64,000 nucleotides of DNA, taken from positions 1,888,001 through 1,952,000 of the forward strand of contig CBDBLO010000002.1 of assembly GCA_965207075.1 (NCBI GenBank), read 5' to 3'. Origin of the DNA: Nitrosopumilus sp. Its GTDB lineage: Archaea; Thermoproteota; Nitrososphaeria; Nitrososphaerales; Nitrosopumilaceae. This document shows positions 24,214-58,208 of this stretch, one piece after another (positions within the stretch are counted from its first letter, which is position 1; every line of letters starts with the position of its first letter). The position numbers and the translations under genes are program-made. The notes under the pieces were generated by a model. The model worked only from the letters and a program-made list of their open reading frames with translations. It made no database searches and had not been told where the DNA came from.

Positions 24214-24287
24214 GGGTCTATGGCGCAGCCAGGTAGCGCTCCGGACTTTTAATCCGGCTGTCAAGGGTTCGAATCCCTTTAGACCCG
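24214..24287 (+). tRNA. tRNA-Lys(TTT); integration target
   Basis: GGGTCTA...CCGGACT-TTT-AATCCGG...GGGTTCGAATCCCTTTAGACCCG cloverleaf. Confidence 0.95.
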
Positions 24288-24457
24288 CTCCCATACTGGT
24301 ACTCTTTTGGGTTCCGGTAAGTGGAAAAAATGATCACAAGTAGGAAGGAAAGTCAGAAAGGCAAAAACCGGGGGAGGGGTGTCACGGCGGCGCGCAGGGG
24401 CGCGGGACTCGCACCTCCACAGGGGCTTTTATGGGATCGGGGGTGTGCGTCCGGATC

Positions 24458-25741
24458 ATGATTAAGATTACAAAAGAGGAGTTAATGGACGAGAGGCCTG
24501 CCACAACGCGTACAAAGCCGTTTGACCTATTCCAGCAGGGCATCAGGGCCGAGGAGACCCGTAAGACGTACACGCGCACGCTCAGGCGCCTGCTGTGCGG
24601 CGCGCTGGAGGAGGTGCTGGAGGGCACGTTTGAGGAGCGCGCAGCGCAGCTCGTGCGGCTGGGCAAGGACGACCCGGACCGCACGCTGGACCTCGTACTG
24701 CGCATATCAGGCAAGATCCGGGCAAGGAGCTCGCTGCCACACGACCACCCGGACTACTTTAACCCGTCGGGCGTCCCCAATTACTTCAAACCGCTCAAAA
24801 AGCTGTTCGACATGAACGGCGTTTCAATGCCGTGGAAGCGCATCTACTCGACGTTCCCCGAGTCCGACAACATTACAGAATCGCGGGGATGGACCCGGGG
24901 GGAGATACAGTCCATGCTCCGGTTTGCCAAGGGGTCGGCCGACAGGGCCGTCATACTGGTTGCCGCCAGCTCAGGCATAAGGGCCGGGGGGTTTGAGCTG
25001 CTGCGGTGGTCGGATCTCAGGCCTATATACCGCGTCGCTGCCAGCGGCGGGGGCGGCAGTGACGATGGCGGCAGCAGCAGCGACGTCCTCAGCTTTGAGC
25101 ATGGCGGCGGCACTGCGGCGGATCCGGTCTGCGCCATGCTTACCATATACGCCCGCACAAACGCAAGCTACCCGGCGTTCATCACGCCGGAGGCGTACGC
25201 GGCGGTAACGGACTACCGGAGCGTGTGGGCTGCGGAGGTCGGCAGGCCCGCGGAGTCTGGCGATCCCATCTTCAAGAGGGCCGGAAGCCTGCCCGCAAAG
25301 GCCACTACCCCGCTGATAAAGAGGAGGATCGAGAAGGTGGCCGGCGCTGCAGGCCTGCGCGCCTCCGGCAGAAAGTCCCGCAACCTGTTTGACGTGCCCA
25401 TAATGAACGGCTTCCGCCGGTTCTGGAACAAGGCGTGCAAGGAGTCCTCCTCGCGGGAGTCGCCCCTGTCGTCCTTGATAAGAAAGGAGTACATGATGGG
25501 GCATGTCGGCTTGGTGAGTCTGGACCGCAACTACTTCAAGACGCACGTGATGGAGCTTGCAGAGGAGTACCTGCAGTCGGTGCCGCACCTGACCATAGAC
25601 GACGCGGCCAGGCTGCGGCTGGCAAACGCGAGGCAGTCGGAGAGGATAGGGCTGCTAGAGGACGAAAAGGACCGGGAGATTGCAAAGCTGCGCCTCATGG
25701 TCGAGCAGCTTGCGGGCAGGATCGAGTCCTACTCCTCCTAG
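24458..25741 (+). CDS. Tyrosine recombinase/integrase of element 1
   Basis: ASSGIRAG (R), NGFRRFW (R), YMMGH and DRNYF (Y); start at ATG 24458 with CTTTTATG about 30 nt upstream. Confidence 0.9.
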   Translation: MIKITKEELMDERPATTRTKPFDLFQQGIRAEETRKTYTRTLRRLLCGALEEVLEGTFEERAAQLVRLGKDDPDRTLDLVLRISGKIRARSSLPHDHPDYFNPSGVPNYFKPLKKLFDMNGVSMPWKRIYSTFPESDNITESRGWTRGEIQSMLRFAKGSADRAVILVAASSGIRAGGFELLRWSDLRPIYRVAASGGGGSDDGGSSSDVLSFEHGGGTAADPVCAMLTIYARTNASYPAFITPEAYAAVTDYRSVWAAEVGRPAESGDPIFKRAGSLPAKATTPLIKRRIEKVAGAAGLRASGRKSRNLFDVPIMNGFRRFWNKACKESSSRESPLSSLIRKEYMMGHVGLVSLDRNYFKTHVMELAEEYLQSVPHLTIDDAARLRLANARQSERIGLLEDEKDREIAKLRLMVEQLAGRIESYSS

Positions 25742-25918: not shown

Positions 25919-26089
25919 TCGGCGTAGGCGCCACGTCTGGGATGGCTACTTGGTGTGTGGCGTGCCCGCAGGCGGGCCGCCGGAATGTACTGTCGCCTGC
26001 TGCATCTCACCCGCAGCTTGACGCGCGACAGGCGTACGCCTTCGGATCTTCATGGAGGCGCCAGCCCCCGGGTTTGCGGCAAACTGGGG

Positions 26090-27937
26090 CAGCAGGGCAG
26101 GGACGGGACGGCGGGACCGGGGCGCAGCACGTGCCAAGAGACGGTGGCTGCCGCCTATGGTCAAGCTGGAAACTGGCGTTCCGATGCAGACGCGCCCGTC
26201 GTCGCCAGAGTTACCCGCAAACTTTCATAGAACTTTATGAAAGTTTGCGGGTAACCTCCGCGGCCCGCGGCACCCCACGCACACTGGAAGTTCGGCGACA
26301 GGCGCATAGATACTCCCGGCCTTGGCCGGCGCACGGACGGCAGGCCTGCCACATGCCCGCAGGAGGCAGGGCGGGCCGGCGGGACCGAGGGCGCAGCACG
26401 TGCCGAGAGACGGTGGCTGCCGCCGCCATACCCGCAAACAATCATAGAGCTCTATGACAGTTTGCGGGTATCTGCCGCATGCCCGCGGGCGCCTGCTCAG
26501 GCCGCCGCGGGGCGGGGCAGGACTCTCCCGTGACGGGCGTATCTGTTAGGTGACAAAGAAATCGAATATTCTGCATGTTTGCCACCATCCGTCCAAGCCT
26601 GCTCGGAGTCAGGCCCCGCAACCTGTCCCGCATGCCTGCGACATCAGACGCCAGGTTCACCGTGGCACACTAACAGCGGGAGACAAGGCGAGCCGGCGGG
26701 ACCGGGGGCGCAGCACGTGCCAGGAGGCAGCTGCTGTTGCTGTCGCCGCCGCCACCACCGGTGGCCAAGGAAGCGGGTGTTCTGATGCAGACGCGCCCGC
26801 CGCCACCGCCAGAGTTACCCGCAAACTGTCATAGAACTTTATGACAGTTTGCGGGTAACCGCCGCATGCCCGCGGCACCACACGCACACGGGCAGGAAGT
26901 CCGGCGGCGGGCGCCTAGACGCCCCCTGTCCTGGCCGGCGCACGGACGGCGGGCCTGCCGCATGCCCGCGGGCGCCTGCGCAGGCCGCCGGGGCTCCCGC
27001 CAAACACTGCAAAAATGGGCAGGCTGCCGTGGCACAGTCGCGGCCCCGCCACGCATCTAGTCCGGAATCAGGCCCCGCAACCTGTCCCGTATGCTTGCAG
27101 CGTCAGACGCCAAGTCCGTCGTGGCACACTTTGACGGCGGGGGGCAGGGGGAACCGGCAGAATCGGGTGACGCGGCACGTGTCGGAAGGGTGGCTGCCGC
27201 CTGCTGTGCAGGCCGGAAGCGGGCGTTCCGATGCAGGTACGCCCAGCCACCGGCAGTTACCCGGAAACTATCATAGAGCTCTATGATACTTTCCGGGTAA
27301 CTATCGCGGCCCGCGGCACCGCACGCACGGGCAGGAAGTCCGGCGGTGGGTGCCCCCGCACACCTCCGGCCCTGGCCGGCACACGGATGGTGGGCCTGTA
27401 CCGTATGCTTGCGGCATCAGACGCTAGATCCACCGTGACTCACTTTAACGGCGGGAGGCAGGGCAAACCGGCGGGACTGGGGACGCAGCACGTGTTGGGA
27501 AGGGACTCCCGCAGGCAACGATCAAGCCGGAAACGAATGTTCCGATGTAGGTACGCTCCCCCGTCGACGACATACCCGCAAACAATCATAGAGCTCTATG
27601 ACAGTTTGCGGGCATCTGCAACGGCCTGCAGCACCGCACGCACGGGCAGGAAGTCTGGTAGTGGGCGCCTGCGCAGGCCGTCGTGGGGGCGGGACCGGCC
27701 CCTCCCGTGGCGGGTGTATCTGTCAGAAGGTGACAAAGAAATCTTTGTTACCTTTGCGCGTTTGCCATCGTCCGCTCCGGCCTGCCCGCAGTCTGGCTGC
27801 CGGGACCCCCGCCAAACACTGCAAAAATGGGCAGGCTGCCGTGGCACAGTCGCGGCCCCGCCACGCATCTAGTCCGGAATCAGGCCCCGCAACCTGTCCC
27901 GTATGCTTGCAGCGTCAGACGCCAGATCCACCGTGGC
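26090..27937. repeat. Mosaic non-coding repeat region with five 44-48 bp palindromes
   Basis: Palindromes TACCCGCAAAC..TCATA-N6-TATGA..GTTTGCGGGTA at 26210, 26428, 26814, 27255 and 27572, separated by reshuffled GC-rich blocks. Confidence 0.92.
27727..27754. repeat. Second-type palindrome (GGTRACAAAGA-N2-TCTTTGTTACC)
   Basis: AAGGTGACAAAGA-AA-TCTTTGTTACCTT; related copy at 58169 and a half copy at about 26549. Confidence 0.8.
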
Positions 27938-28957
27938 AAAGCGGAGCTTGTGTCCCTGTATTGTAGCCGATTCATCATAATCGGTTCCCACTGATGGGTA
28001 CAGAAGCATTCCGGTGGAAGTCATCGACAGATTGTTGCCCTCGCGTTCCTGGGATCTCAGATACGAGTATATCTGGTATATGTTCGAGCTTTTCAATATT
28101 TCGCGGTGCCACCGAGTCGTGATTTCCGTGAATTTGGTATCGATTACTATTCGATGCGATCTGTCCGATTTTTCAACAATGATGTCGGTCTTCATTTCAG
28201 GCAGAATTTTGTCTATTCCTGGAGTGTGCGGTTCGGCGTGCCACTCAATCCACTCGCCCAGACGTACTTGCCACTTGTCAAGCACTATGCTGTAAAAACC
28301 ACCCACGGCCCTTTCAAATAGATTTCTTATCAGGCTCTCCTTGCTCCTGTCAGGCAAAACCACGTCCAGACGCCCGGACTCCTCCGTAGGTATCGTGAGA
28401 TCCCATGCCAGCTGTGCGGCGGCAATCATTCTCGCATCGTCCTGGCCGTGCCTTGCGTTCCTAATGCTGGCCGTATGCTGCCTTGCGTCAAACGAATTAG
28501 AGACTCCGTACCTTGCAAATGCGGCGGCGTCGATGCGGCAGCGCCGCTTGAGATTCTTGTCCTCGACGATCGCACCCAGTCGATCCAATGCCGCCATGAC
28601 GAACCTGTTTCTTGGGACGTCCACGGTAAACTCGTCAAAGCTGCACGCTATCTTGCCCCGCTGGAGCAGGTGCCGGCGTTTTGTACGGATGTGGTTGATG
28701 CGCCCCCTGACACGGGTCAGGTCGGCCTGTCTGCGCTGCAGCTCGTGGGTGAGCATGCGCCGCAGGCGCCGCTCCACCTCTGCCGTTAGGATCTCTGCAA
28801 CCAGATCCGGGATTTTGTCGGGATTCTGCTCCGCGGCAACCCTTTTTTCGGGCGTGTCCCGCAGCTTTTTGTAGAGATCCGACGCATACAGCATCAGCAG
28901 CCACAGGTTTCTGACCGGTATCTTGCCGATGGCTTCCGCGCCTGACTGTTCACTCAA
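27869..28957 (-). CDS. mcrC: McrC-family nuclease subunit
   Basis: IPVRNLWLLMLYA, RGRI, TDI...IDTKF PD-(D/E)xK core, YQIYSY and GMLLYP. Confidence 0.92.
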   Translation of the reverse strand: MSEQSGAEAIGKIPVRNLWLLMLYASDLYKKLRDTPEKRVAAEQNPDKIPDLVAEILTAEVERRLRRMLTHELQRRQADLTRVRGRINHIRTKRRHLLQRGKIACSFDEFTVDVPRNRFVMAALDRLGAIVEDKNLKRRCRIDAAAFARYGVSNSFDARQHTASIRNARHGQDDARMIAAAQLAWDLTIPTEESGRLDVVLPDRSKESLIRNLFERAVGGFYSIVLDKWQVRLGEWIEWHAEPHTPGIDKILPEMKTDIIVEKSDRSHRIVIDTKFTEITTRWHREILKSSNIYQIYSYLRSQEREGNNLSMTSTGMLLYPSVGTDYDESATIQGHKLRFATVDLASDAASIRDRLRGLIPD

Positions 28958-30684
28958 GTCCCTAATACCGAAAGCAGCCTTTTCTTTTCGGCCAGTGCAG
29001 TCTCCGGATCCTCAAACCAGTACTCCAACAAAAGCGGGCCGATCTTGTACTCTACCACCCGTCTCCACCACGTCCCTGTGTCTGGAACCTCGTCATTGGT
29101 TTTGGGCATCGCGTAGCTGTGCCCCACCCTAAAGTTGGGGCCCAGCATCCCGTTCTTGGCTATTCTTTCGTTGAGGGACGTCATGGCATCCCCGATTCTA
29201 CTCAGAATGTCGGGGTCTATTGCTCCGAAATTCTCGCGCACCCACCCACGCCAAGTCTCACCAAAGACAGGATCCAAGCGGACAAAGTCAAAGCGGCGCC
29301 TCAGGGCCATGTCTACCAAGGCGATGGAGCGGTCTGCCGCGTTCATGGTGCCTATGATGTAGAGGTTTGGTGGCACGTGTACCTGTTCGGACCCGTCACG
29401 CGGATAGCTTAGCGATATGGCATGATCATCACTGCGCTTGTCCGCCTCGATCAGCGTGAGCATCTCGCCAAATATGCTTGCGGGGTTGCCGCGGTTTATC
29501 TCCTCTATGATTATGACAAACTTGCGGCCCTCTTGCTCTTTGGCGTCATTTATCGCGTCAAGAAACGGCCCGTCCCGCAAAGCAAGCCCGCTCCCATCCG
29601 GCCGCCAGCCCCTCACAAAGTCCTCGTACGAGAGGTTTGGGTGGAACTGGACCGTCCTCACCCCTGGATCTGGCTTGTGGCCTATGAGTGCAAATGCCAG
29701 CCTCTTTGCCAAGTATGTCTTGCCAGTACCCGGAGGGCCCTCGAGGATCAGGTTTTTTGTATTCTCCAGCATGCTCATGATGGATTGCAGTTCGGATTTC
29801 TCTACAAAGCATCCGTCCTTGACTATGTCCTCGATGGAATATGATAGACCGTCAGAGTCAGAAGTTCTAGTATCCTTGGATTCGGCTTTCTCTTTCTTCT
29901 TGGATTCGGCTTTCTCTTTCTTCTTGGATTCGGCTTTCTCTTTCTTCTTGGATTCGGCTTTCTCTTCTTTCTTCTTGACACGCGAATATTTGTATGCTTC
30001 AGCTGACAGTTCTGGAAATGAGCTCATGTCAGTATTTGTTTTGAGTACCGCCAGTATTCTTTCAGTTAGATCTAGATATTCCTCGCAGTTATTTGGATTT
30101 ATATCAGATGTTTTGGTGTAATCAAGGTATTGTCTTGTGCTAGAGTCCAATGGGAGGAACTCGTATGGCCTGATCCAGAATAATCCGATGGTAAGCGTGT
30201 TAAACGGGGTGCCGAGCCTGATTACAGTGTCAAATGATTCTACGAGCTTGGAGCGGTTGGACTTGTTGTTTGCATATGCCAGCGCGTGTGCAAGGACATT
30301 CCAGAGTTCATTAATGTGGTCGGGGTCGCGCTTCTGGGCGTATTGGAAAAACCAACGCCGTCGGCTGTCCAGTACCGGGACGCCCGGCCAGTCGTCGGGC
30401 GGGGGTGTGCTGACACCCAAGAGGTTTGCAAGCTGGCCCTGCGTATGGATGCGGTTCTGATAATTCACGTTGCGGTTAAACTCACTCATGGTCGTGAACG
30501 GGCATATGTCCTGTATCGGTTCTGAAGAGCCGTCCTTAAACTTGTCTGTCATTATGTTAAAGCCCAGCTCCCTGTGAATTCCATGAATGGCATCGATCAG
30601 CGGCCTGCGGTCGTTTCTGTATCTGAGCAGCCTGTCTGCAAACTCGCTGTAGAACTCAATCCAGCCCGGACTGTCGTCGGCCAT
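28954..30684 (-). CDS. mcrB: McrB-family AAA+ GTPase
   Basis: GPPGTGKT, QFHPNLSYEDF, EEINRG, GTMNAAD and ALRRRF; overlaps the mcrC start. Confidence 0.93.
   Translation of the reverse strand: MADDSPGWIEFYSEFADRLLRYRNDRRPLIDAIHGIHRELGFNIMTDKFKDGSSEPIQDICPFTTMSEFNRNVNYQNRIHTQGQLANLLGVSTPPPDDWPGVPVLDSRRRWFFQYAQKRDPDHINELWNVLAHALAYANNKSNRSKLVESFDTVIRLGTPFNTLTIGLFWIRPYEFLPLDSSTRQYLDYTKTSDINPNNCEEYLDLTERILAVLKTNTDMSSFPELSAEAYKYSRVKKKEEKAESKKKEKAESKKKEKAESKKKEKAESKDTRTSDSDGLSYSIEDIVKDGCFVEKSELQSIMSMLENTKNLILEGPPGTGKTYLAKRLAFALIGHKPDPGVRTVQFHPNLSYEDFVRGWRPDGSGLALRDGPFLDAINDAKEQEGRKFVIIIEEINRGNPASIFGEMLTLIEADKRSDDHAISLSYPRDGSEQVHVPPNLYIIGTMNAADRSIALVDMALRRRFDFVRLDPVFGETWRGWVRENFGAIDPDILSRIGDAMTSLNERIAKNGMLGPNFRVGHSYAMPKTNDEVPDTGTWWRRVVEYKIGPLLLEYWFEDPETALAEKKRLLSVLGT
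29875..29965. repeat. 24-bp in-frame tandem repeat (about 4 copies) in mcrB
   Basis: CTTGGATTCGGCTTTCTCTTTCTT repeated, encoding KKKEKAES. Confidence 0.92.
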
Positions 30685-30803
30685 GACTGTCCGTATAATG
30701 CGTGCTTTTTATTGTTTGATCCGTACATCACGGATCCCGTTGATGCCAGTCGGCCTGTCAGTTCTTGCAAGTCCATGAAAAATCCGCCTTATATGCATCC
30801 CGT

Positions 30804-31652
30804 ATGTCTGACGGCGTGCTGAGGATAGGGCTTGACATCGGGACCGGCTTTGTAAAGTGCGTCTCGGATCATGGGGCAGTTCGGTTTCCATCGTTGTACG
30901 TCAAAAGAACACACGGGGATTGGGCCGATGCGGATTACGAGGCCGTGGGGGAGAGGGCAGCCGGGATGTTGCATACCTCCGGGGCGTCCACCGTGCGGCC
31001 CGTTGTGCGCGGGAGGCCCGATCCCAGGTACCAGAAACAGGTGGAGATGCTGATCCGGGAGGCCGTATCCCGGGTCCGCGTCGCGGCCGGCCGCGCCGCG
31101 GACTGCGGTGAGAAGACCGGGATGGCCGTGGGCCTGCCGTACGAGGCTTCCGACTGCCGGGAGGCCGTATCCAAGATGGTCAGAAGATGCGTCCCCGCTG
31201 ACCGGTGCGACGTGGTGGCCCAGGCCGTCGGGACGTTGGTTGACATGGATAAGAGTACCGGGATGGTGGTCTCCATAGGCCAGGGAACCAGCGAGATCGT
31301 GGTGATAGAGGACAACCAAGTGATAGACGGGGAGAGCTCCCGGTGGGCGTCTGAGTTCATAACTCGCAAGATAGGCAAGTTTGCGCACCTAGACAAGGAT
31401 CTGCTACACCGGCGCAGGGAGACGTGCAAAAAGTACGCAAGGGTGCTTGCAGGCAACCTAGCAGACGAGATAACGGACATGTCCGCGGAGTACGGCCACG
31501 CGCACGACGTGGTGCTTTCCGGCGGCGGGCTACTTATCCCGGGGGTGCGCGACGAGCTGGAGTCGAGGCTCAAAAAGAGGTTCAGGATCAGCGTGCCGGC
31601 CGATCCGGTCATGAGCAATGCGTCAGGCCTCTACAAGCTGCTGGTGGAGTGA
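30804..31652 (+). CDS. ParM/StbA-like actin-fold ATPase (copy 1)
   Basis: GLDIGTGFVK (phosphate 1), GLP, SIGQGTSE (phosphate 2), LSGGG (adenosine) and DPVMSNASG (connect 2). Confidence 0.85.
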   Translation: MSDGVLRIGLDIGTGFVKCVSDHGAVRFPSLYVKRTHGDWADADYEAVGERAAGMLHTSGASTVRPVVRGRPDPRYQKQVEMLIREAVSRVRVAAGRAADCGEKTGMAVGLPYEASDCREAVSKMVRRCVPADRCDVVAQAVGTLVDMDKSTGMVVSIGQGTSEIVVIEDNQVIDGESSRWASEFITRKIGKFAHLDKDLLHRRRETCKKYARVLAGNLADEITDMSAEYGHAHDVVLSGGGLLIPGVRDELESRLKKRFRISVPADPVMSNASGLYKLLVE

Positions 31653-31689: not shown

Positions 31690-34600
31690 ATGGGATCGAG
31701 GCGCTGGCGCTTGGCCAACCGCAAAAAGCCCGAAGGGCAGCTGGGCTGCACAAAGCACTTCCTTGCGGCCGGAACCGGCAGGCTGGCCGCCTACTCGGTC
31801 AGGATACCGATCGAGATGGACGTGAAAAAGGCCGTGCTGGCGGCAGGCGACCTTGCCGGCGCCCGCACCCGCAGTTTTGAGGTGTGGTGGGACGCGGCGG
31901 ACAAGAGGATGGAGTTCGTCCTAGTGGCAGAAGAGGACGACTTGGACGCCTACAAACAGTCGTTTTTGAACATGTACCCGAACGCGGCGTTCTCCGCAAT
32001 GGGACAGACCGAGCCGGGCTGGTTCGGGCCGCCGGGGCCTGACTGCCAGATATTCGACGTGGGCACGCGCCACGGACACTATTCGACGGTCTTTGACAGG
32101 GCCAGGGCGCACCACCTCATGAGCAGGGTGGCAAGGCTGGTTCAGCTGTCCAGAAGCGCCTGGATACAGTTCGTGTTCAGGCGCCACTCATTCGACTCCT
32201 TCCTACGCGGGCACGTGAGCCGCCTCGACGCTAGGGCGCTCGAGATCAAGCAGGGTAACTATCTCAGCACGGCCGAGCTCATCACGCTTTCGGACAAAAA
32301 GCCGCACGACCACCCGGAGCTGGGGTACGACTTTGCCAACAATTATGCGGGCCTCCAAAAGCACGCCACGCTCAAGACGCAGTCCGCCCAGGTCATCATG
32401 AGCGTCCGCGGCATGATCAGGGGCGACCGCGAGATCAACCTCAACTTTGACGAGATCGAGTCCCTCCCGGTGGAGAACATATTCTCGGGGCACGAGCACC
32501 TGACCAAGTTTCCATACAGAAACCAAGATTTCTGGGACGAGAAAAAGCCCAAGAAGGTGGAGATCCGCATAACCGACAGCAGGGAGCGGTTCCCCCGCAT
32601 GGACGTCTTTGCGCGCAGGCTGCTGCCAGATCCCGACAAGCTGCTGGGTGCCGCCCGGGGGAGGTACTTTGACAAGGGGCTGCTGGGCGGGTACCGCGAC
32701 CGCCCCCCGCTGCCGTTCCTCATACTGAACCTCTCGGAGATCCCGCTGCTCGTGCACCTGCCGGATCCCGTGGACACCCCGAACATAGAGGCCACCCGGG
32801 GTGTTACGATCCCCTCGAGGTCATCTGCAAAGGCGGGCGCGCCGCTGGGGTTCTTCAGGCCCAAGCCAAGAGACTTTGACTGGGGCAAGACATGGGGCGT
32901 CGTGGTGCCCTCCAAGGACGAGGACGCCGCGGTGATATCACCCGCGGATTTCGCCACCCACGTGTATGCGGTCGGCGCGTCAGGCTCGGGCAAGACCTCG
33001 CTTGTCAGGGTTATCGCAAAGCACTTGGAGGTGTGGAACGAGAACGGAACCATGCGCAACGCGTTCATTTACGTGGATCCCAAGGGGGACGACTCCCACA
33101 AGTTCGTCAGGCAGTGCGGTCCGGGCCCCATATCGGACGGGCGGATCCACTTTCTGGACCCCCAGAAGACAAAGTTCTCGATAAACCCGCTGGAGCTGCC
33201 GGACCACTCGCCGTGGGAGCGCGAGGAGGTCGTGTCTAGGCACGTCGGATATTTCATGAAGACCATAGAGGAGTGGTACCAGCAGTCTGCCAGCTACGTG
33301 CAGATGGAGCGCATCTTCCGCGCGCTTTTGTTCTACATGTACATGAAGCACGACGCGCCCACCTTCCTTGACATCCACCACGTCATACTCCGGCTCCAGG
33401 ACAGCGGACAGCAGGCCATGCCGGAAATCATACAGACGTACGGCACCCCCGAACCCGAGATGAGGCAGGCGCTCGACAGTATCGCCACCCTCAAGGGCGA
33501 CGCGTTCACACCCCTGCTCAACCGCGTCGAGCAGTTTGCGACAGACCCGGTGCTCAGGCGCATGTTCTCGGTCAGGAACGGCACCGTCGACTTTGGCGAG
33601 CTCATACAACCGGGCCACCAGACCATAGTCCGCATATCGCCGCTGAACATGCCCCACCACGTGCAGCCCCTGGCGATGCAGGCGTTCATACTGAAGCTGT
33701 GGTTTACGATACAAGAGCGGGCCAACCGCACGCCCGACGAGTCGGAGCGCACGCAGGTAGTACTCGCGTTAGACGAGTTCCAGATTGTAAAGGACCTGCA
33801 GGTGCTGCAGCTTATGCTGGAGCAGGCAAGGTCGCTGGGGCTCGGACTCGTACTGTCACACCAGACCACCGAGCAGATAAGCGACAAACAACTGGGACTC
33901 ATCACAGGCAACTCGGGCACGCAGCTGGTCGGCAAGGTGAACGGCAAGGACGCCTCCCGCATCGCCCAGATCTGGGATCCTCAGTTCCTGAAAGAGCTGC
34001 AGCAACAGCTCTCAAGCCAAGAGTACTTTCACTGGACGATCCGCGAAAAGGCGCCGCCGGGACTCGAGCAGCCTCCCCCTGTCCAGTTCTGGCTCTCCAG
34101 ACCGCCGGACATGATGACGGGTGACGCCGAGTATGACGCGTTCGTCAGCAAGCAGCTGGCCAAATACGGCGCAGGCGTAATCGGCCCCGACGCAATCGCG
34201 CAGGCGGCCAGGGAGAAGAGCATGTGGCTTGGGAACATCACGGTAGAGCTGCCCCCAAAGCTGGAGTGGGGGATAATGCGCCTCCTGCACGAGAACTCTG
34301 AAATGCAGCAGGGGGAGCTTGCCAAGGGACTCAGGGTCCAGAACCGCGACGAGGTGGCCGCGGCGCTCCGAGACATGGAAGGCAGGGGGATAGTGGAGCG
34401 TACAGGTACGGTGCGCACCTCGCCGTACAGGCTTTCCAAAGAGATAGAGCGGACGTATTTTGAGCTCGACCATGCGGAGGTGGGCACCGCGCCCGACGTT
34501 GCCGAGGTGGCAGATAAGGCGGTCTCGGCATACCTCAAGGAGGGACTGTTCGTGGCCGCCGCCTCCCAGCGGATCAAAAAAGGCAGAGACCGAACCGACC

Positions 34601-34827
34601 TGGTGGCCTATGACTATGCCCGGGAGGTTCCGATAAGCGTCGAGATAGAGTCGGTCAGCGAGGTGGACAGCCACCCGGAGCACGTCATGTACAACATGAC
34701 AAAGTGGGCCAAGATGGGCTTTGTCGAGTGCCACGTCTGGTCCAAGAGCCCCAAGATAAAGGGCATCAGGGAGCAGCTTGACGGAGAGCAGAAAAAGAGG
34801 GTCTCCGTGATTGTCATTTCATCCTGA
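31690..34827 (+). CDS. VirD4/TrwB/HerA-like P-loop ATPase with C-terminal wHTH and PD-(D/E)xK-like domain (copy 1)
   Basis: GASGSGKT, YVDPKGD, LALDEFQ and QARSLGLGLVLSHQ; then QQGELAKGL...LRDMEGRGIVER and TDLVAY...VEIES. Confidence 0.82.
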   Translation: MGSRRWRLANRKKPEGQLGCTKHFLAAGTGRLAAYSVRIPIEMDVKKAVLAAGDLAGARTRSFEVWWDAADKRMEFVLVAEEDDLDAYKQSFLNMYPNAAFSAMGQTEPGWFGPPGPDCQIFDVGTRHGHYSTVFDRARAHHLMSRVARLVQLSRSAWIQFVFRRHSFDSFLRGHVSRLDARALEIKQGNYLSTAELITLSDKKPHDHPELGYDFANNYAGLQKHATLKTQSAQVIMSVRGMIRGDREINLNFDEIESLPVENIFSGHEHLTKFPYRNQDFWDEKKPKKVEIRITDSRERFPRMDVFARRLLPDPDKLLGAARGRYFDKGLLGGYRDRPPLPFLILNLSEIPLLVHLPDPVDTPNIEATRGVTIPSRSSAKAGAPLGFFRPKPRDFDWGKTWGVVVPSKDEDAAVISPADFATHVYAVGASGSGKTSLVRVIAKHLEVWNENGTMRNAFIYVDPKGDDSHKFVRQCGPGPISDGRIHFLDPQKTKFSINPLELPDHSPWEREEVVSRHVGYFMKTIEEWYQQSASYVQMERIFRALLFYMYMKHDAPTFLDIHHVILRLQDSGQQAMPEIIQTYGTPEPEMRQALDSIATLKGDAFTPLLNRVEQFATDPVLRRMFSVRNGTVDFGELIQPGHQTIVRISPLNMPHHVQPLAMQAFILKLWFTIQERANRTPDESERTQVVLALDEFQIVKDLQVLQLMLEQARSLGLGLVLSHQTTEQISDKQLGLITGNSGTQLVGKVNGKDASRIAQIWDPQFLKELQQQLSSQEYFHWTIREKAPPGLEQPPPVQFWLSRPPDMMTGDAEYDAFVSKQLAKYGAGVIGPDAIAQAAREKSMWLGNITVELPPKLEWGIMRLLHENSEMQQGELAKGLRVQNRDEVAAALRDMEGRGIVERTGTVRTSPYRLSKEIERTYFELDHAEVGTAPDVAEVADKAVSAYLKEGLFVAAASQRIKKGRDRTDLVAYDYAREVPISVEIESVSEVDSHPEHVMYNMTKWAKMGFVECHVWSKSPKIKGIREQLDGEQKKRVSVIVISS

Positions 34828-43686: not shown

Positions 43687-43689
43687 GTC

Positions 43690-52918: not shown

Positions 52919-53038
52919 TGCATATCATGCATTATAGACATGCATGTTATGCATGCCCGAAGACCTTGAAAGTGCATATCATGCATGCCACAGATGCATA
53001 TCATGCACGTAAGATTGGCGGGACATGCATATCATGCA
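52919..53038. promoter_or_regulatory. Phased TGCATATCATGCA box array (copy 2)
   Basis: Boxes at 52919, 52941 (variant), 52973, 52995 and 53026. Confidence 0.8.
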
Positions 53039-53078
53039 CTTTTTTCTTGCCTTTTATGCATACGCGGGCCCATACTGC

Positions 53079-53426
53079 ATGGAACTGGAGGACATGCAGA
53101 GAAAGGTGCAGTTCCGGCAGGGCTCCTATATGGTGACCATCCCGCTCCAGATAGTCCACGCGCTTGGGATACGCAGGAACCAATACGTCCGGTTTGCCGT
53201 ATCAAAGAACAAGGTCATCATAAAGCCCGTCGAGGCGAGCATCACTAAGAAAGACGTGACGGAGGCAGACAGGGATTCTGCCGCGCTTGACAAGTACGAC
53301 GGGCCTCGGGCGGCGGATAACGAGGATGCCGGCTACATGGACGCTCTTGAAGAAGCCCTGTCTAAAAACAGGCCAGATGGCAACGGCGGCGCCAGCAGCC
53401 GCATGGAAAAGCTCAGGATGAGATGA
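53079..53426 (+). CDS. AbrB/MazE/SpoVT-fold DNA-binding protein (copy 2)
   Basis: N-terminal domain near-identical to 34814-35152; CTTTTATG box at 53051. Confidence 0.88.
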   Translation: MELEDMQRKVQFRQGSYMVTIPLQIVHALGIRRNQYVRFAVSKNKVIIKPVEASITKKDVTEADRDSAALDKYDGPRAADNEDAGYMDALEEALSKNRPDGNGGASSRMEKLRMR

Positions 53427-56400
53427 CTATCACAAAGACTCTCTTTTTTTGCTCCTCGTCTAGCCGGGCCCTGATGTCCTTTATCCGGGGGCTCTTGGAC
53501 CAGACGTGGCACTCGGCAAAGCCCATCTTGGCCCACTTTGTCATGTTGTACCTGACGTGCTCCGGGTGGCTCTGGACCTCGCTTACGGACTCGATCTCCA
53601 CCGATATCGGGGCCTCCTTGTCGTAATCGTACGCGACCAGGTCGGTCCGGTCGGTGCCCTTTTTGATGCGCTGCGACGCCATGGCCACGAACAGGCCCTG
53701 CTTGAGGTACGCCGCAACCGCCTTTTGCGCCACCTCCTCAACGTCTGATGCCGTGCCCACCTCCGTGTGGTCAAACTCAAAGTATGCCTTCACCGCTTTT
53801 TTTGACAGGATATATGGCGACGTGCGCACCGTGCCTGCGCGCTCGACCAGTCCCCTGCCTTCCATGTCCCGGAGGGCGGAGGCCACCTCGTCGCGGTTCT
53901 GTACCTGCAGATGGTCTGCAAGCTGTCCCTGCTGCATGTCCTCGTTTTTTAGTAGGCGCATGATTCCCCACTCCAGCCTGGAGGGCAGCTCAACTGTTAT
54001 GCTCTCAAGCCACCTGCTCTTCTCGCGGGCCGCCTGCGCCATGGCGTTTGGGCCCACGACACCGGCGCCGTACTTGGCCAGCTGCGCCTTGACATACCTG
54101 TCGTATTCCGCGTCCGTGACTATCATGTCTGGGGGCCTGGCAAGCCAGAACTGGACGGGCGGGGGCTGCTCCTGCCCCGGTGGCGCTTTCTCGCGCATGG
54201 TCCAGTGGAAGTACTCCTGGCTTGAGAGCTGCTGCTGCAGCGCCTTTTGGAACTGTGGATCCCAGATCTGCGCGATGCGGGAGGCATCCTTGCCGTTGAC
54301 CCTGCCCACCATCTGCGTGCCCGAGTTGCCCGTGATGAGCCCCAGCTGCTTGTCGCTGATCTGCTCGGTGGTCTGGTGTGACAGCACGAGCCCCAGCCCC
54401 AGAGACCTTGCCTGCTCGAGCATCAGCTGCAGCACCTGCAGATCCTTTACAATCTGGAACTCGTCGAGCGCGAGCACCACCTGCGTGCGCTCCGACTCGT
54501 CGGGCGTGCGGTTGGCGCGCTCCTGTATGGTGAACCACAGCTTCAGTATGAACGCCTGCATCGCCAGCGGCTGCACGTGGTGGGGAAGGTTCAGCGGCGA
54601 TATCCTGACAACGGTCTGGCGCCCCGGCTTGATCAGCTCGGCAAAATCCACCGTGCCCTGTCTTACCGAGAACATGCGCCGGAGTACGGGATCGGTTGCA
54701 AACTGCTCTATGCGGTTGAGCAGCGGCATGAACGCGTCGCCCTTGAGGGTGGCGATGCTGTCGAGCGCCTGCCTCATCTCGGGCTCTGGGGTGCCGTACG
54801 CCTGTATGATCTCGGGCATGGCCTGCTGCCCGCTGTCCTGGAGCCTGAGTATGATGTGGTGTATGTCAAGGAACGTGGGCGCGTCGTGCCTTACGTATAT
54901 GTAAAACAAGAGGGCGCGGAAGATGCGCTCCATCTGCACGTAGCTTGCAGACTGCTGGTACCACTCCTCTATCGTCTTCATGAAGTATCCGACGTGCCTG
55001 GACACGACCTCCTCGCGCTCCCACGGCGAGTGCGCGGGCAGCTCCAGCGGGTTTATCGAAAACTTGGTCTGCTGCGGGTCCAGAAAGTGGACGCGCCCCC
55101 CGGACACGGAGCCGGCGCCGCACTGCCTGACGAACTTGTGGGAGTCGTCCCCCTTCGGATCCACGTATATGAACGCGTTGCACGCGGTCCCGTTCTCATT
55201 CCACGCCTCCAGGTGCTTTGCGATGACCCTGATCAGCGAGGTCTTGCCGGAGCCGGACGCGCCGACCGCATACACGTGGGTGGCGAAGTCCGCGGGCGAT
55301 ATCACCGCGGCGTCCGCGTCCTTGGAGGGAACCGCGGCGCCCCATGTCTCGCTCCAGTCAAATCCTGCCGGCTTGGGCCTGAAGAACCCCAGCGGCGCGC
55401 CCGCCTTTGCAGACGATTTCGAGGGGATTGTAACGCCTCTCGTGGCCTCTAGGTTCGGGATGTCCACCGGATCCGGCAGGTGCACGAGCAGCGGGATCTC
55501 CGGCAGGTTCAGTATGAGGAACGGCAGCGGCGGGCGGTCGCGGTACCCACCCAGCAGCCCCTTGTCAAAGTACCGTTTTAGCGCGGCGCCCAGCAATTTG
55601 TCGGGGTCCGGCAGCAGCCTGCGCCCGAACACGTCCATGCGCGGGCACCGCTCCTCGCTGTCAGTTATGCGGACCTCCACCCTCCTTGGCTTTTTCTCGT
55701 CCCAGAAATCCCGGTTCCTGTATGGAAACTTGGTCAGGTGCTCGTGCCCCGAGAACACGTTCTCCACCGGGAGGGACTCGATCTCGTCAAAGTTGAGGTT
55801 GATCTCGCGGTCTCCCCTTATGATGCCCCGGACGCTCATTATTACCTGGGCGGACTGCGTCTTGAGCGTGGCGTGCTTTTGGAGACCCGCGTAGTTGTTG
55901 GCAAAGTCGTACCCCAGCTCCGGGTGGTCGTGCGGCTTTTTGTCCGAAAGCGTGATGAGCTCGGCCGTGCTGAGGTAGTTGCCCCGCTTGATCTCAAGCG
56001 ATCTGGCGTCGAGGCGGCCCACGTGCCCGCGCAGAAAGGAGTCAAAGGAGTGGCGCCTGAACACGAACTGTATCCAGGCGCTCCTGGACAGCTGGGTCAG
56101 CCTTGCCACCCTGCTCATGAGGTGGTGCGCCCTGGCCCTGTCAAAGACGGTCGAGTAGTGCCCGTGGCGCGTGCCCACGTCGAATATCTGGCAGTCCGGC
56201 CCCGGCGGCCCGAACCAGTCCGGCTCGGTCTTCCCCATTGCGGAGAATGACGCGTTCGGGTACATGTTCAAGAACGCCTGCTTGTAGGCGTCCAGGTCGC
56301 CCTCCTCCGCCACCAGGACGAACTCCATCCTCTTCTCCACAGCATCCCACCACACCTCAAAGCTGCGGGTGCGGGTGCCGGCAAGGTCGCCTGCGGCCAG

Positions 56401-56547
56401 CACGGCCTTTTTTGCGTCCATCTCGATCGGTATCATGACCGAGCAGGCGGCCAGCCTGCCGGTCCCGGCCGCAAGGAAGTGTTTCGTGCGGTCCAGCTGC
56501 CCCTCGGGCTTTTTGCGGTTGGCCAGGCGCCAGCGTCTTGATCCCAT
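53413..56547 (-). CDS. VirD4/TrwB/HerA-like ATPase with wHTH and PD-(D/E)xK-like domain (copy 2)
   Basis: Full-length close paralogue of 31690-34827. Confidence 0.82.
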   Translation of the reverse strand: MGSRRWRLANRKKPEGQLDRTKHFLAAGTGRLAACSVMIPIEMDAKKAVLAAGDLAGTRTRSFEVWWDAVEKRMEFVLVAEEGDLDAYKQAFLNMYPNASFSAMGKTEPDWFGPPGPDCQIFDVGTRHGHYSTVFDRARAHHLMSRVARLTQLSRSAWIQFVFRRHSFDSFLRGHVGRLDARSLEIKRGNYLSTAELITLSDKKPHDHPELGYDFANNYAGLQKHATLKTQSAQVIMSVRGIIRGDREINLNFDEIESLPVENVFSGHEHLTKFPYRNRDFWDEKKPRRVEVRITDSEERCPRMDVFGRRLLPDPDKLLGAALKRYFDKGLLGGYRDRPPLPFLILNLPEIPLLVHLPDPVDIPNLEATRGVTIPSKSSAKAGAPLGFFRPKPAGFDWSETWGAAVPSKDADAAVISPADFATHVYAVGASGSGKTSLIRVIAKHLEAWNENGTACNAFIYVDPKGDDSHKFVRQCGAGSVSGGRVHFLDPQQTKFSINPLELPAHSPWEREEVVSRHVGYFMKTIEEWYQQSASYVQMERIFRALLFYIYVRHDAPTFLDIHHIILRLQDSGQQAMPEIIQAYGTPEPEMRQALDSIATLKGDAFMPLLNRIEQFATDPVLRRMFSVRQGTVDFAELIKPGRQTVVRISPLNLPHHVQPLAMQAFILKLWFTIQERANRTPDESERTQVVLALDEFQIVKDLQVLQLMLEQARSLGLGLVLSHQTTEQISDKQLGLITGNSGTQMVGRVNGKDASRIAQIWDPQFQKALQQQLSSQEYFHWTMREKAPPGQEQPPPVQFWLARPPDMIVTDAEYDRYVKAQLAKYGAGVVGPNAMAQAAREKSRWLESITVELPSRLEWGIMRLLKNEDMQQGQLADHLQVQNRDEVASALRDMEGRGLVERAGTVRTSPYILSKKAVKAYFEFDHTEVGTASDVEEVAQKAVAAYLKQGLFVAMASQRIKKGTDRTDLVAYDYDKEAPISVEIESVSEVQSHPEHVRYNMTKWAKMGFAECHVWSKSPRIKDIRARLDEEQKKRVFVIVISS

Positions 56548-56584: not shown

Positions 56585-57433
56585 TCACTCCACCAGCAGC
56601 TTGTAGAGGCCCGCTGCGTTGCTCATGACCGGGTCGGCCGGCACGCTGATCTTGAACCTCTTTTTGAGCCTCGACTCCAGCTCGTCGCGCACCCCCGGGA
56701 TGAGCAGCCCGCCGCCTGAAAGCACGACATCGTACGCGTGGCCGTACCCGGAGGACATGTCCGCTATCTCGTCTGCCAGGTTGCCTGCAAGCACCCTTGC
56801 GTATTTTTTGCACGTCTCCCTGCGCCGGTGCAGCAAGTCCTTGTCCAGATGCGCAAACTTGCCTATCTTGCGAGTTATGAATTCCGAGGCCCACCGGGAG
56901 CTCTCCCCGTCGATCACCTGGTTGTCCTCTATAACCACGATCTCGCTGGTTCCCTGCCCTATGGAGACCACCATGCCGGTGCTCCGGTCCATCTCGACCA
57001 GCGTCCCCACGGCCTGGGCCACCACGTCACACCGGTCCGCCGGGACGCACCTTTTGACCGTCTTGGATATGGCCTCGCGGCAGTCTGAGGCCTCGTACGG
57101 CAGGCCCACGGCCATCCTGGCCTTTTCATTGCAGTCCGCGGCGCGGCCTGCCGCGACGCGGATCCGGGACACTGCCTCCCGGATCAGCATCTCCACCTGC
57201 TTCTGGTACCTGGGATCGGGCCTCCCGCGTACGATGGGCCGCACGGTGGCCGCCCCTGCAGTATGCAGCATCTTGGTTGCCCTCTCGCCTATGGCCTCGG
57301 AATCCGCGTCGGCCCAGTCCCCGTGCGTCCTCTTGACGTACAGCGACGGGAACACAACGGAGCCGTGGTCTGAGACGCACTTTACAAAGCCGGTCCCGAT
57401 GTCAAGCCCTATCCTTAGCACGCCGTCAGACAC
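56585..57433 (-). CDS. ParM/StbA-like actin-fold ATPase (copy 2)
   Basis: Close paralogue of 30804-31652 with the same length from the equivalent start. Confidence 0.85.
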   Translation of the reverse strand: MSDGVLRIGLDIGTGFVKCVSDHGSVVFPSLYVKRTHGDWADADSEAIGERATKMLHTAGAATVRPIVRGRPDPRYQKQVEMLIREAVSRIRVAAGRAADCNEKARMAVGLPYEASDCREAISKTVKRCVPADRCDVVAQAVGTLVEMDRSTGMVVSIGQGTSEIVVIEDNQVIDGESSRWASEFITRKIGKFAHLDKDLLHRRRETCKKYARVLAGNLADEIADMSSGYGHAYDVVLSGGGLLIPGVRDELESRLKKRFKISVPADPVMSNAAGLYKLLVE

Positions 57434-57699
57434 GCGGGATGCATAAAAGGCGGATTTTTCGCAGAATGGCAACCGCCTGAGAAGCCGCGCAGAACACAAG
57501 ACGCTTCCAGCGCACACAGTTGCTTGGGCGGTACGGCATGCCAGGGTCCGTCAGACCAACTGCCAGCCAGTGATGCTCCAAGAGAACCACTCGCAACCGG
57601 GCCAAGCGAGGCCAGCTCTGGATAGTTGCTACAGGCGCCTGTCAAGACGCCGGATATACAACGATCCAAGCGTGCACGCACGACGCACAAGAGAGGTCA

Positions 57700-58168: not shown

Positions 58169-58208
58169 TGTGAGATGGTAACAAAGATTTCTTTGTTACC
58201 ATCTCACA
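58169..58208. repeat. Second-type palindrome (19+2+19)
   Basis: TGTGAGATGGTAACAAAGA-TT-TCTTTGTTACCATCTCACA. Confidence 0.88.

What the first reader, a model, noticed from the sequence alone, without database searches (positions are those of the whole stretch)
26210..27615. Array of long palindromes with matched arm changes beside the integrase, recurring in the second element
Seen: seven copies (26210, 26428, 26814, 27255, 27572, 57763, 57914) of TTACCCGCAAACTTTCATA-N6-TATGAAAGTTTGCGGGTAA. Several copies differ by paired changes that keep the symmetry (TTTCATA/TATGAAA, TGTCATA/TATGACA, TATCATA/TATGATA; CCGCAAA/TTTGCGG versus CCGGAAA/TTTCCGG). The 6-bp centre varies (GAACTT, GAGCTC, AAGATC). 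None occurs in the first 24 kb of core genome. Known: tyrosine recombinase sites have inverted arms around a 6-8 bp spacer, integron attC and REP elements act as hairpins, and protelomerase targets are long palindromes. Inference: these are hairpin-selected recombination or processing sites at a cargo junction, possibly a cassette-capture hotspot. The palindrome cluster keeps the same absolute orientation in both elements even though the cores are inverted, so it may move independently.
Basis: partly seen in the sequence, partly recalled or inferred. Interest (0 to 1): 0.8.

Follow-up and report, generated by a model that had tools for sequence, protein, structure and literature searches.

The report
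Paired-arm palindrome arrays in archaeal mobile elements
A family of 44-base palindromes that keep their two arms complementary sits in arrays inside the integrated mobile elements of a sponge-associated ammonia-oxidising archaeon, and most likely marks the element's DNA for its own handling proteins, though its function is not yet shown.

Summary
All seven palindromes are at the stated places, where shuffles give none. The host is an archaeon of the Nitrosopumilaceae with about 60% G+C. Its genome holds exactly 14 copies at 6 loci, all inside integrated elements. Another 29 copies lie in four related assemblies.

Arm complementarity is kept by double changes: 12 of 19 pairs, with 0 of 500 shuffles as high. 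One hinge position is the exception. A second palindrome family with the same geometry accompanies the first.

The palindromes are cores of conserved non-coding units. These units lie between a tyrosine recombinase, confirmed by fold, and an operon for an actin-like ATPase, a 1045-aa VirD4/HerA-like ATPase and an AbrB-like protein. Distant relatives carry unrelated hairpin arrays at the same place.

I found no support for cassette capture:
- No ORFs lie between sites.
- One neighbouring insertion is an ordinary transposon.
- Two integrase families share the same palindrome types.

My best reading, at 0.35, is structure-selected cis sites for the element's DNA-handling module. RNA hairpins, recombinase sites, plain operators and selfish repeats remain open.

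The parts
26211..26254 (.). pal1 copy 1 (perfect 19+6+19, centre GAACTT)
26428..26471 (.). pal1 copy 2 (AT-type, 2 arm mismatches at positions 13-14)
26815..26858 (.). pal1 copy 3 (perfect)
27257..27300 (.). pal1 copy 4 (CCGG/CCGG variant, mismatch at hinge position 12)
27572..27615 (.). pal1 copy 5 (AT-type, 3 mismatches)
57764..57807 (.). pal1 copy 6 (second element, centre AAGATC)
57914..57957 (.). pal1 copy 7 (second element, fully palindromic, centre GAGCTC)
27729..27752 (.). pal2, second palindrome family (GGTGACAAA-GAAATC-TTTGTTACC), at the end of the first array
26549..26563 (.). degenerate pal2: left arm and centre kept, right arm replaced, downstream flank still homologous
58169..58208 (.). 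pal2 in the second element (17-bp arms, centre GATTTC, the inverse of the first element's centre)
25939..27868 (.). non-coding array region: about 2.5 copies of a 600-750-bp super-unit (TT-type pal1, conserved GC-rich flank, AT-type pal1, pal2)
24214..24288 (+). tRNA-Lys(UUU), presumed integration target of the first element
24431..25741 (+). 436-aa divergent tyrosine recombinase (integrase)
27869..30684 (-). McrBC-type restriction cargo lying between the array and the actin-like gene
30765..31652 (+). actin-like ATPase (ALP); the conserved module with its promoter starts at 30778
31690..34827 (+). 1045-aa VirD4/TraG/HerA-like P-loop ATPase with a C-terminal winged helix
34814..35197 (-). AbrB/SpoVT-like small protein with a conserved C-terminal SRMEKLRMK tail (likely start 35152)
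53025..53426 (+). AbrB-like protein of the second element
53413..56547 (-). VirD4/HerA-like ATPase of the second element (88% identical to the first)
56585..57517 (-). actin-like ATPase of the second element (90% identical)
62054..63856 (-). 600-aa integrase-like protein of the second element. The assignment rests on motifs read by eye and on paralogues next to other palindrome loci. No fold test was done.

Best explanation
The palindromes (pal1, with pal2) are cis-acting DNA sites belonging to the backbone of a family of Nitrosopumilaceae integrative elements. They sit in a conserved non-coding region between the integrase and a three-gene DNA-handling module: an actin-like ATPase, a VirD4/HerA-like ATPase with a winged-helix tail, and an AbrB-like protein.

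Proposed mechanism: each site can fold back as a two-part hairpin or cruciform. It has an outer stem of about 11 bp, a tolerated hinge mismatch, an inner stem of 5-7 bp and a 6-nt loop. An element protein reads the conserved blocks ACCCG / AAAC / TCATA. Several sites in a row build a nucleoprotein complex that marks the excised element for segregation or transfer. The array would then be a centromere-like or origin-of-transfer-like locus.

Shown here: the sites, their restriction to the elements, arm covariation, the conserved position, the protein folds and families, and analogous hairpin arrays in distant relatives.

Inferred: that the folded form is the one used, which protein binds, and what the complex does.
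For: (1) Restriction to elements. There are 14 sites in 2.23 Mb, all at 6 loci with element genes. The covariance model adds none at E<=0.1. Of 24 long palindromes on the 2.19-Mb contig (arms >=15, <=1 mismatch), 14 are pal1 or pal2.

(2) Selection on pairing. Twelve of 19 pairs changed on both sides and 0 of 500 shuffles were as high. Seven variable positions are symmetric (p<=0.004), whereas position 12 is not (26 matched against 24.1 expected, p=0.28). A fixed unsymmetrised hinge argues against purely mutational symmetrisation.

(3) Three sequence-unrelated palindrome families share one geometry.

(4) Conserved synteny. The order integrase, palindromes, ALP, ATPase, AbrB holds in window elements A and B, genomic element C, and relatives L070, L079 and L080.

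(5) Hairpins upstream of ALP in relatives. Eight of 20 relatives' loci have at least one long hairpin within 3 kb upstream of ALP, against 0-0.2 in shuffles. L079 and L080 carry arrays of 6 and 3 hairpins with a conserved inner stem and wholly different, complementary outer stems. Eight of these 9 are interrupted between the two stems.

(6) Elements that lost ALP and the ATPase still keep integrase, array and AbrB gene (E, F, L023, L024, L027, L031). A cis site usable in trans would be expected to persist in this way.

(7) The ATPase belongs to an archaeal VirD4/TraG/HerA-like family. Its tail is a MarR-type winged helix (Z about 11).
Against: No binding, cleavage, transfer or segregation datum exists.

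Template-switch correction of quasi-palindromes could produce part of the symmetry without selection.

The palindromes also occur upstream of an operon for secreted or membrane proteins with no ALP or ATPase nearby (G, L029, L034, C2x). They are therefore not tied to that module alone.

Twelve of 20 relatives' loci show no long hairpin within 3 kb of ALP.

The AbrB-like genes carry their own upstream repeats of a different sequence. These may be that protein's true operators.

No relaxase or replication initiator was recognised in the backbone.
Confidence: 0.35

Rival explanations
1. RNA-level element. The palindromes act as hairpins in transcripts: as 3' stabilisers, terminators or insulators between operons, or as the core of small RNAs encoded by the repeated units.
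For: Pairing is conserved and the loop is free to vary. Each palindrome lies downstream of a gene's 3' end and upstream of the next promoter in most loci. It is 83-530 bp from an AbrB-like gene's 3' end in 10 loci and about 45-150 bp upstream of a GAAAA..CTTTTAT promoter. In L079 and L080 each hairpin is flanked by A-rich and T-rich runs and followed by a conserved TGTAAAAAT motif. One flank of pal1 is conserved at 80-87% with indels not in threes.
Against: No Rfam family matches. There is little covariation in the flanks. G.U states are rare: 4 G.T against 16 A.C cells on the strand as stored. My hand count of transition-type mismatches relative to the incoming gene's strand is 6 for and 1 against, after dropping variants found in both orientations. 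That is not significant. pal1 has no T-run after it. Established knowledge, not tested here: archaeal termination relies on oligo-T, not hairpins.
Confidence: 0.2
2. Targets of the elements' tyrosine recombinases. These would be Xer/Cre-type core sites (inverted arms around a 6-bp centre), or folded sites like attC, that mediate inversion, deletion, resolution or module exchange.
For: The geometry fits: conserved inner 11 bp, then 6 bp, then 11 bp. A review passage gives dif as two 11-nt inverted repeats with a 6-nt spacer and says XerA also binds stem-loops (PMC8371274, passages). The neighbouring protein's best fold matches are XerA, Cre, XerH and lambda Int. Sites with unlike left and right arm types exist, for example CAA/CTG and CTT/GAA. 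The palindrome block is inverted relative to the ALP module in the second element. In L024 palindromes flank the segment carrying the integrase.
Against: No gene cassettes lie between sites. The same palindrome variants occur with two integrase families. Centres differ within one array, which would block exchange between neighbours. Twenty-two of 43 centres are themselves palindromic, so they give no direction. The neighbouring insertion that could be dated is a TIR/TSD transposon. The half pal2 sites are not junctions. The joints seen in contigs of public runs are explained by paralogous arrays.
Confidence: 0.15
3. Plain double-stranded operator or centromere sites for a dimeric element protein, such as the AbrB-like protein. 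Arm symmetry at uncontacted positions would be produced by hairpin-templated correction, not by use of a folded form.
For: Three blocks per arm are conserved in sequence: C4, C6, A10, A11 and T15-C16-A17 are invariant. An AbrB-like gene is present in nearly every element and lies next to the palindromes in 10 loci. In F, L022, L021 and L030 pal1 sits 12-13 bp from a TTTATAAA box. The triplets in L023, L025 and L031 are spaced 63-66 bp apart, about six helical turns.
Against: Distances to promoters vary from about 45 to 150 bp. The hinge position is left unsymmetrised. In relatives the outer stems differ completely between neighbouring copies yet stay complementary. The AbrB genes have their own different upstream repeats.
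Confidence: 0.15
4. A selfish REP- or MITE-like repeat that spreads within these elements and does nothing for them.
For: The palindrome plus one conserved flank behaves as a movable unit found in both orientations and in different contexts. Identical copies lie at two unrelated places, C2 710224 and 751777.
Against: There are only 14 copies, and none in core genome. No Y1/RAYT transposase is found in the 95%-complete genome. I saw no target duplications. The position is conserved in elements whose ALP is only 40% identical.
Confidence: 0.1

Closest known systems
Plasmid centromeres made of repeated palindromic units (F sopC, R1 parC upstream of parM, the palindromic AspA site of Sulfolobus pNOB8). 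Recalled, not fetched.
   Same: An array of repeated sites lies beside an operon for a cytomotive NTPase (here actin-like) and a small DNA-binding protein with a conserved tail. There is one cluster per element.
   Different: The arms are far longer (19-20 bp). Spacers are long and conserved (63-442 bp). Arm changes are compensatory, with a hinge. The sites also occur away from the ALP operon. A large VirD4/HerA-like ATPase lies between the motor and the small protein. No archaeal actin-type partition system has been described, to my knowledge.
Inverted repeats of conjugative transfer origins and single-strand initiation hairpins (such as RSF1010 ssiA/ssiB, F leading-region hairpins). Recalled.
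   Same: Hairpins of about 40 nt that act in single-stranded or extruded DNA, with a conserved stem part. They are kept by mobilisable elements that lack the transfer genes. A VirD4-type ATPase is encoded nearby.
   Different: No relaxase or primase was recognised. There are up to five copies in a row. The host is an archaeon, where the DNA-processing step of conjugation is unknown.
Integron attC arrays
   Same: Structure-recognised imperfect palindromes in a row beside a tyrosine recombinase. Unpaired positions are part of the design.
   Different: No ORF cassettes lie between sites. The ends read GTTACCC...GGGTAAC and not the RYYYAAC/GTTRRRY consensus (recalled). The integrase sits at a tRNA gene like an ordinary element integrase.
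Xer/dif core sites, plasmid cer/psi sites and Acinetobacter pdif modules
   Same: An inner arm of about 11 bp, a 6-bp centre and a second arm. One conserved accessory flank resembles cer/psi. The nearest fold of the neighbouring recombinase is XerA.
   Different: The palindrome is extended to 44 bp. There are many copies per element with unlike centres. No modules of genes are bounded by pairs of sites.
REP/BIME elements with RAYT transposases
   Same: Extragenic palindromes of 35-45 bp, clustered, with compensatory arm changes.
   Different: They are not dispersed in the chromosome and are limited to mobile elements. No Y1 transposase was found in the genome.

Membership tests
REP/BIME | Imperfect extragenic palindromes with compensatory arm changes, often clustered | tested here: met
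REP/BIME | Many copies dispersed through intergenic regions of the host chromosome | tested here: not met
   14 copies at 6 loci, all with element genes. The covariance model finds no others at E<=0.1.
REP/BIME | A RAYT (Y1 transposase) gene in the genome | tested here: not met
   PF01797 gave 0 matches at E<=0.01 in the 95%-complete genome. The control found it in 6 of 14 reference genomes.
Integron attC array | Sites separated by promoterless gene cassettes | tested here: not met
   Spacers are 63-442 bp, conserved, with indels not in threes and no shared ORF family.
Integron attC array | Conserved R''/R' ends (RYYYAAC ... GTTRRRY; consensus recalled) | tested here: not met
   The ends read GTTACCC ... 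GGGTAAC.
Integron attC array | IntI-type integrase with its extra domain | tested here: inconclusive
   The fold search lists an integron integrase only at rank 39, behind XerA and Cre. The IntI-specific insertion was not examined.
Xer/dif-type recombination site | Two inverted arms of about 11 bp around a 6-bp centre | tested here: met
   The conserved inner arm is AAAS-NN-TCATA, the centre is 6 bp, and the mirror arm follows. The definition comes from PMC8371274 passages.
Xer/dif-type recombination site | One site per replicon, recombined by a Xer recombinase | tested here: not met
   There are 1-5 sites per element and 14 per genome. Recombination itself is not testable with these tools.
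Tyrosine recombinase (the 436-aa neighbour) | Two-domain fold and catalytic R..R..H..Y residues | tested here: met
   The model has pLDDT 79 and its best matches are XerA (E 1.4e-5), Cre, XerH and lambda Int. R175, R320, H349 and Y359 are invariant in 32 homologues. Pfam PF00589 is only sub-threshold, and no hit in the whole genome passes the cut-off.
Type II (actin-type) partition locus | Repeated centromere next to the actin-like ATPase gene | tested here: inconclusive
   Palindromes lie 100-1000 bp upstream of ALP in B, C, D, L032, L068, L079 and L080. They are separated from it by cargo in A, and they are also found without ALP.
Type II (actin-type) partition locus | Adaptor protein that binds both the centromere and the filament | not testable with these tools
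   The AbrB-like protein has a fitting layout: a DNA-binding domain, a loose linker and a conserved C-terminal peptide. DNA binding and filament binding cannot be measured here.
Conjugative oriT | Inverted repeat beside a nick site, with a relaxase and a coupling ATPase | tested here: inconclusive
   A VirD4/TraG-like ATPase is present. No relaxase family was found in the backbone. The last 115 residues of the ATPase have no family match, and their fold was not searched alone.

The most novel reading that the evidence does not exclude
The arrays are a new kind of archaeal cis element. They would be rows of two-part DNA hairpins serving as the loading or transfer origin of a relaxase-less, conjugation-like or actin-driven DNA-moving system in ammonia-oxidising archaea. 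That system would comprise the VirD4/HerA-like ATPase with its winged-helix tail, an actin-like ATPase and an AbrB-like adaptor. The sites would be read by shape plus a short conserved stem sequence.
Probability: 0.15. Interest if true: 0.8.

Novelty: new variant of a known kind. Interest (0 to 1): 0.55.

Why it matters
Mobile elements of ammonia-oxidising archaea are known almost only from gene lists, and no cis-acting site of theirs has been defined. This work yields a sharply defined, testable DNA feature: a 44-bp two-part hairpin site in arrays. It is conserved in position across elements whose proteins are only 40% identical. It lies next to an unstudied three-gene module (actin-like ATPase, VirD4/HerA-like ATPase, AbrB-like protein).

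If the sites prove to be the centromere or transfer origin, they would open the mechanism of plasmid segregation or DNA transfer in this phylum. They would also provide parts for genetic tools in organisms that have none. If they prove to be RNA hairpins or recombinase sites, they still define how these elements are built and reshuffled in sponge symbionts.

Tried and rejected
No earlier notes were seen.
- Sequencing runs: 22 runs were listed and no RNA holder was among them. All four runs laid were contigs. Their joints start or end at palindrome edges with 27-57-letter sides, which fits cross-mapping from the paralogous arrays of the same genome. I draw nothing from them.
- Protein complex of ALP with the AbrB-like protein: weak support. 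The score was 0.32 and the best control 0.00. That mark was reached by 58 of 80 solved complexes and 2 of 110 mismatches, but at 0.60 or under by only 7 of those 80 solved complexes and by both mismatches that passed. The runs agreed in at least 51% of contacts and the partner's pLDDT was at least 55. I do not count this as evidence.
- Rfam: nothing at gathering score. Only sub-threshold microRNA and sRNA chance hits fall on the hairpins.
- Flank structure: RNAalifold on 11 units gave little covariation outside the palindrome.
- Strand test by wobble pairs: inconclusive, as described under the RNA rival.
- att search: no repeat of 16 bp or more of the tRNA region in the window, so element ends were not defined.
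- Pattern scans: viral contigs 0, metagenome contigs 1 short contig, 0 of 200 other genomes sampled from the order, and 0 of 150 sampled from the family with the covariance model.
- CRISPR mimicry: my k-mer script found no CRISPR-like array in the genome, only 75-nt coding repeats.
- Pfam, NCBIfam and PHROGs gave nothing for the integrase, the 600-aa integrase-like protein, or the secreted/membrane protein families next to some palindromes.
- The idea that the ATPase's last domain is a PD-(D/E)xK nuclease rests on motifs read by eye and on low-ranking Foldseek rows (BstEII, prob 0.94). The VIA search was filled by the winged helix. It is unverified.
- Literature: three searches and passages of PMC6563490 and PMC8371274 gave no description of these palindromes. 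In PMC6563490 'actin', 'AbrB' and 'MreB' do not occur, and 'palindrom' occurs only in a reference title. Supplements were closed and may list these elements.
Full report
**Observation.** The seven palindromes are real. They lie at window 26211, 26428, 26815, 27257, 27572, 57764 and 57914, each 44 bp long. A degenerate pattern finds 7 sites, each matching on both strands, and none in 100 dinucleotide shuffles. Two copies (26428, 27572) carry 2-3 arm mismatches. No copy lies in the first 26 kb.

**Host and distribution.**
- The genome has archaeal rRNA: SSU 1459 bits, the best model of its clan. It is 2.23 Mb with 60% G+C.
- The pattern occurs at exactly 14 sites in this genome, grouped at 6 loci. 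A covariance model built from 42 copies finds the same 14 sites and nothing else at E<=0.1.
- On the 2.19-Mb contig there are 24 palindromes with arms of at least 15 bp and at most 1 mismatch. Fourteen of them belong to this family (10) or to a second family, pal2 (4).
- Outside this genome, an exact-pattern scan found 14 loci in four assemblies labelled Nitrosopumilaceae, Thaumarchaeota or Nitrosopumilus, with G+C 54-63%. These loci hold 29 further copies.
- The pattern was not found in the 200 other genomes sampled from the order. The model found no match in the 150 genomes sampled from the family. Viral contigs gave nothing, and the metagenome scan gave one short contig.
- Runs that hold the stretch are largely labelled sponge metagenomes.

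**Anatomy.**
- pal1 has 19-20-bp arms around a 6-bp centre. C4, C6, A10, A11 and T15-C16-A17, with their mirror positions, are invariant. Positions 1, 5, 8, 13, 14, 18 and 19 vary.
- The centre is GAGCTC in 19 of 43 copies, and 22 of 43 centres are themselves palindromic.
- A second family, pal2 (GGT[AG]ACAAA-GAAATC-TTTGT[TC]ACC, arms 12-17 bp), lies at window 27729 and 58169 and at four other genomic places. A third family occurs in L032. All have the same arm-centre-arm geometry.
- pal1 is always followed on one side by a conserved non-coding flank. One type is about 190 nt long and GC-rich, found in the window array and in E, F, L022, L027 and L032. It is 80-87% identical, and its indels are not multiples of three. 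A shorter second type occurs in other loci.
- The 2.1-kb window array is about 2.5 copies of a 600-750-bp super-unit holding a TT-type pal1, an AT-type pal1 and a pal2.
- No Rfam family matches, and the flanks show little covariation.

**Arm symmetry.**
- Over 37 distinct rows, 93.7% of cells pair against 83.9% in shuffles. Twelve of 19 pairs changed on both sides, and the covariation score is 0.231 against 0.074. None of 500 shuffles reaches these values, and slid controls give 27-45% paired.
- Tested position by position, seven variable positions are symmetric (p<=0.004). Position 12 (C or G) is not: 26 matched against 24.1 expected, p=0.28. It is unpaired in 10 of 37 rows.
- The site is therefore a two-part stem with a tolerated hinge.
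- Hairpin-templated correction of quasi-palindromes is a known mutational process (stated from general knowledge). It could create symmetry without selection, but it should not spare one position.

**Context.**
- Each of the six genomic loci carries element genes.
- The common order is integrase, palindrome cluster (with or without cargo), a promoter of the form GAAAA-N5-6-CTTTTAT, an actin-like ATPase, a 1045-aa ATPase and a convergent AbrB-like gene.
- The 436-aa neighbour has no Pfam hit at the cut-off. Its relatives are named integrase by their sources. Its model (pLDDT 79) matches XerA, Cre, XerH and lambda Int.
- The large ATPase belongs to an archaeal VirD4/TraG/HerA-like family, and its tail holds a MarR-type winged helix.
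- The small protein has an AbrB/SpoVT-like domain and a conserved C-terminal peptide.
- Elements E, F, L023, L024, L027 and L031 lack ALP and most or all of the ATPase, yet keep the palindromes and the AbrB-like gene.
- In another class (G, C2x, L029, L030, L034), a 60-aa AbrB-like gene ends 173-265 bp from the palindrome. In G, L029 and L034 the palindrome lies upstream of an operon for secreted or membrane proteins. Over all 10 loci with an adjacent AbrB-like gene the distance is 83-530 bp.
- Between the window's two elements lies a defence island: McrBC, methylases, an OLD-like ATPase with a UvrD helicase, and a MORC-like ATPase.

**Distant relatives.**
- The actin-like gene occurs in 33 of 301 sampled genomes of the family. 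This tally includes two unpublished genomes, which I did not analyse further.
- In 20 loci fetched around it, the integrase-ALP-ATPase-AbrB order recurs.
- Eight of the 20 have at least one long hairpin within 3 kb upstream of ALP, against 0-0.2 in shuffles.
- L079 and L080 have ALP only 40% identical and about 43% G+C. They carry 6 and 3 hairpins at a 105-120-bp period. The inner stem CGGGAA/TTCCCG is conserved, the outer stems are wholly different yet complementary, and 8 of the 9 have an interruption between the two stems.
- The same design therefore recurs with unrelated sequence at the same place.

- Selection for a fold-back form is supported.
- A cassette-capture role is not supported, for four reasons. 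There are no ORFs between sites. The 2.2-kb insertion next to the array in element F, judged against L022, has about 27-bp terminal inverted repeats and an 8-bp target duplication, and lies 33 bp from the palindrome. The half pal2 sites keep homologous flanks on both sides. The same palindrome variants accompany two integrase families.
- The palindrome units do keep their orientation between the two window elements while the ALP module is inverted. pal2 has the opposite centre in the second element. The block is thus modular, but how it was turned is unknown.

**Mechanism.**
- I rate as most likely (0.35) that these are cis-acting, fold-back-capable DNA sites of the element backbone. An element protein would read shape plus the three conserved blocks. 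The array would then act as a centromere-like or transfer-origin-like locus for the ALP / VirD4-HerA-like / AbrB module.
- Shown here: the sites, their restriction to elements, the covariation, the position and the protein folds.
- Inferred: the binding protein and the role.
- The rivals are RNA hairpins (0.2), recombinase targets (0.15), plain duplex operators (0.15) and a selfish repeat (0.1).
- Against my reading: the sites also occur without the module, 12 of 20 relatives show no hairpin within 3 kb, and no relaxase or initiator was recognised.

**Comparison with known systems.**
- The sites fail two defining features of REP/BIME: dispersal, and a Y1 transposase in the genome.
- They fail two defining features of attC arrays: cassettes and end motifs.
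- They share the arm-centre-arm geometry of Xer/dif sites (PMC8371274 passages) but not the single-copy rule.
- They resemble repeated plasmid centromeres and oriT or ssi hairpins in layout, but binding and function cannot be tested here.
- I found no description of them in three literature searches or in passages of two papers. Supplements were closed.

**Limits.** No RNA data were available. The laid runs were contigs only. The predicted ALP-AbrB contact was only weak. Element ends were not defined.

Noticed in passing
window 27729-27752, 58169-58208, 26549-26563; G000 C2 573175, 1733325, 1733451, 1783939: A second palindrome family (pal2, centre GAAATC/GATTTC) has its own conserved flanks. 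Copies at window 26549 and at three other places have the right arm replaced while both flanks stay homologous.
   Followed up: partly
window 35688-45588 and 27869-30684: A low-GC defence island lies between two back-to-back elements. It holds McrBC, a MORC-like HATPase protein, two N6/N4 DNA methylases, and an OLD-like DUF2813 ATPase followed by a UvrD helicase (a Gabija-like pair).
   Followed up: partly
G000 C2 about 2130836-2133063 (element F), compared with L022 7310-7317: A 2.2-kb low-GC insertion has about 27-bp terminal inverted repeats and an 8-bp target duplication (TCCCGCCG). It is an unannotated transposon-like element.
   Followed up: partly
window 52918-52954; upstream of AbrB-like genes in E, D, L024, L027, L032: Tandem or inverted short repeats lie directly upstream of the AbrB-like genes: ATGCAT-type in the window and about 33-bp tandem units elsewhere. 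They are read through as spurious N-terminal extensions. They are probably that protein's own operators.
   Followed up: no
window 30778-30800 and 57440-57461; also C, D, G, L029, L034: A shared promoter-like motif, GAAAA-N5-6-CTTTTAT(G/C)A or CTTTTAACA, precedes the element operons. The homology between elements A, B and L032 begins exactly at this motif.
   Followed up: partly
whole genome G000: No match to Pfam Phage_integrase passes the curated cut-off anywhere in the genome. All six integrase-like paralogues are sub-threshold, so standard annotation would miss every tyrosine recombinase here.
   Followed up: partly
window 50719-51726 and 47024-50563: An IS630-family transposase lies here, beside a 1179-aa surface protein with Ig-like, transthyretin-like and cupredoxin domains, between the two elements.
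   Followed up: no
L022 7152-7292 and the 197 bp after the integrase stop in the window (25742-25938): A stretch downstream of the integrase is conserved at about 92% identity between elements. In L022 it holds a 46-aa ORF with a CxxC motif, which might be an excision helper.
   Followed up: no
L029 6293-7231, L033 6073-6978, G000 C2 2055155-2056108: A roughly 300-aa protein with an N-terminal CxxC zinc ribbon, resembling TFB/TFIIB by eye, is encoded in the palindrome-bearing elements that lack ALP. A published survey says thaumarchaeal conjugative elements encode TFIIB homologues (PMC6563490 passage).
   Followed up: no
G000 C2 445824 and 1777045: Two further long palindromes share the motif CAAAGTCGTC. 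One lies near an integrase paralogue and the other just upstream of the AbrB-like gene of element D. They may form a fourth family.
   Followed up: no
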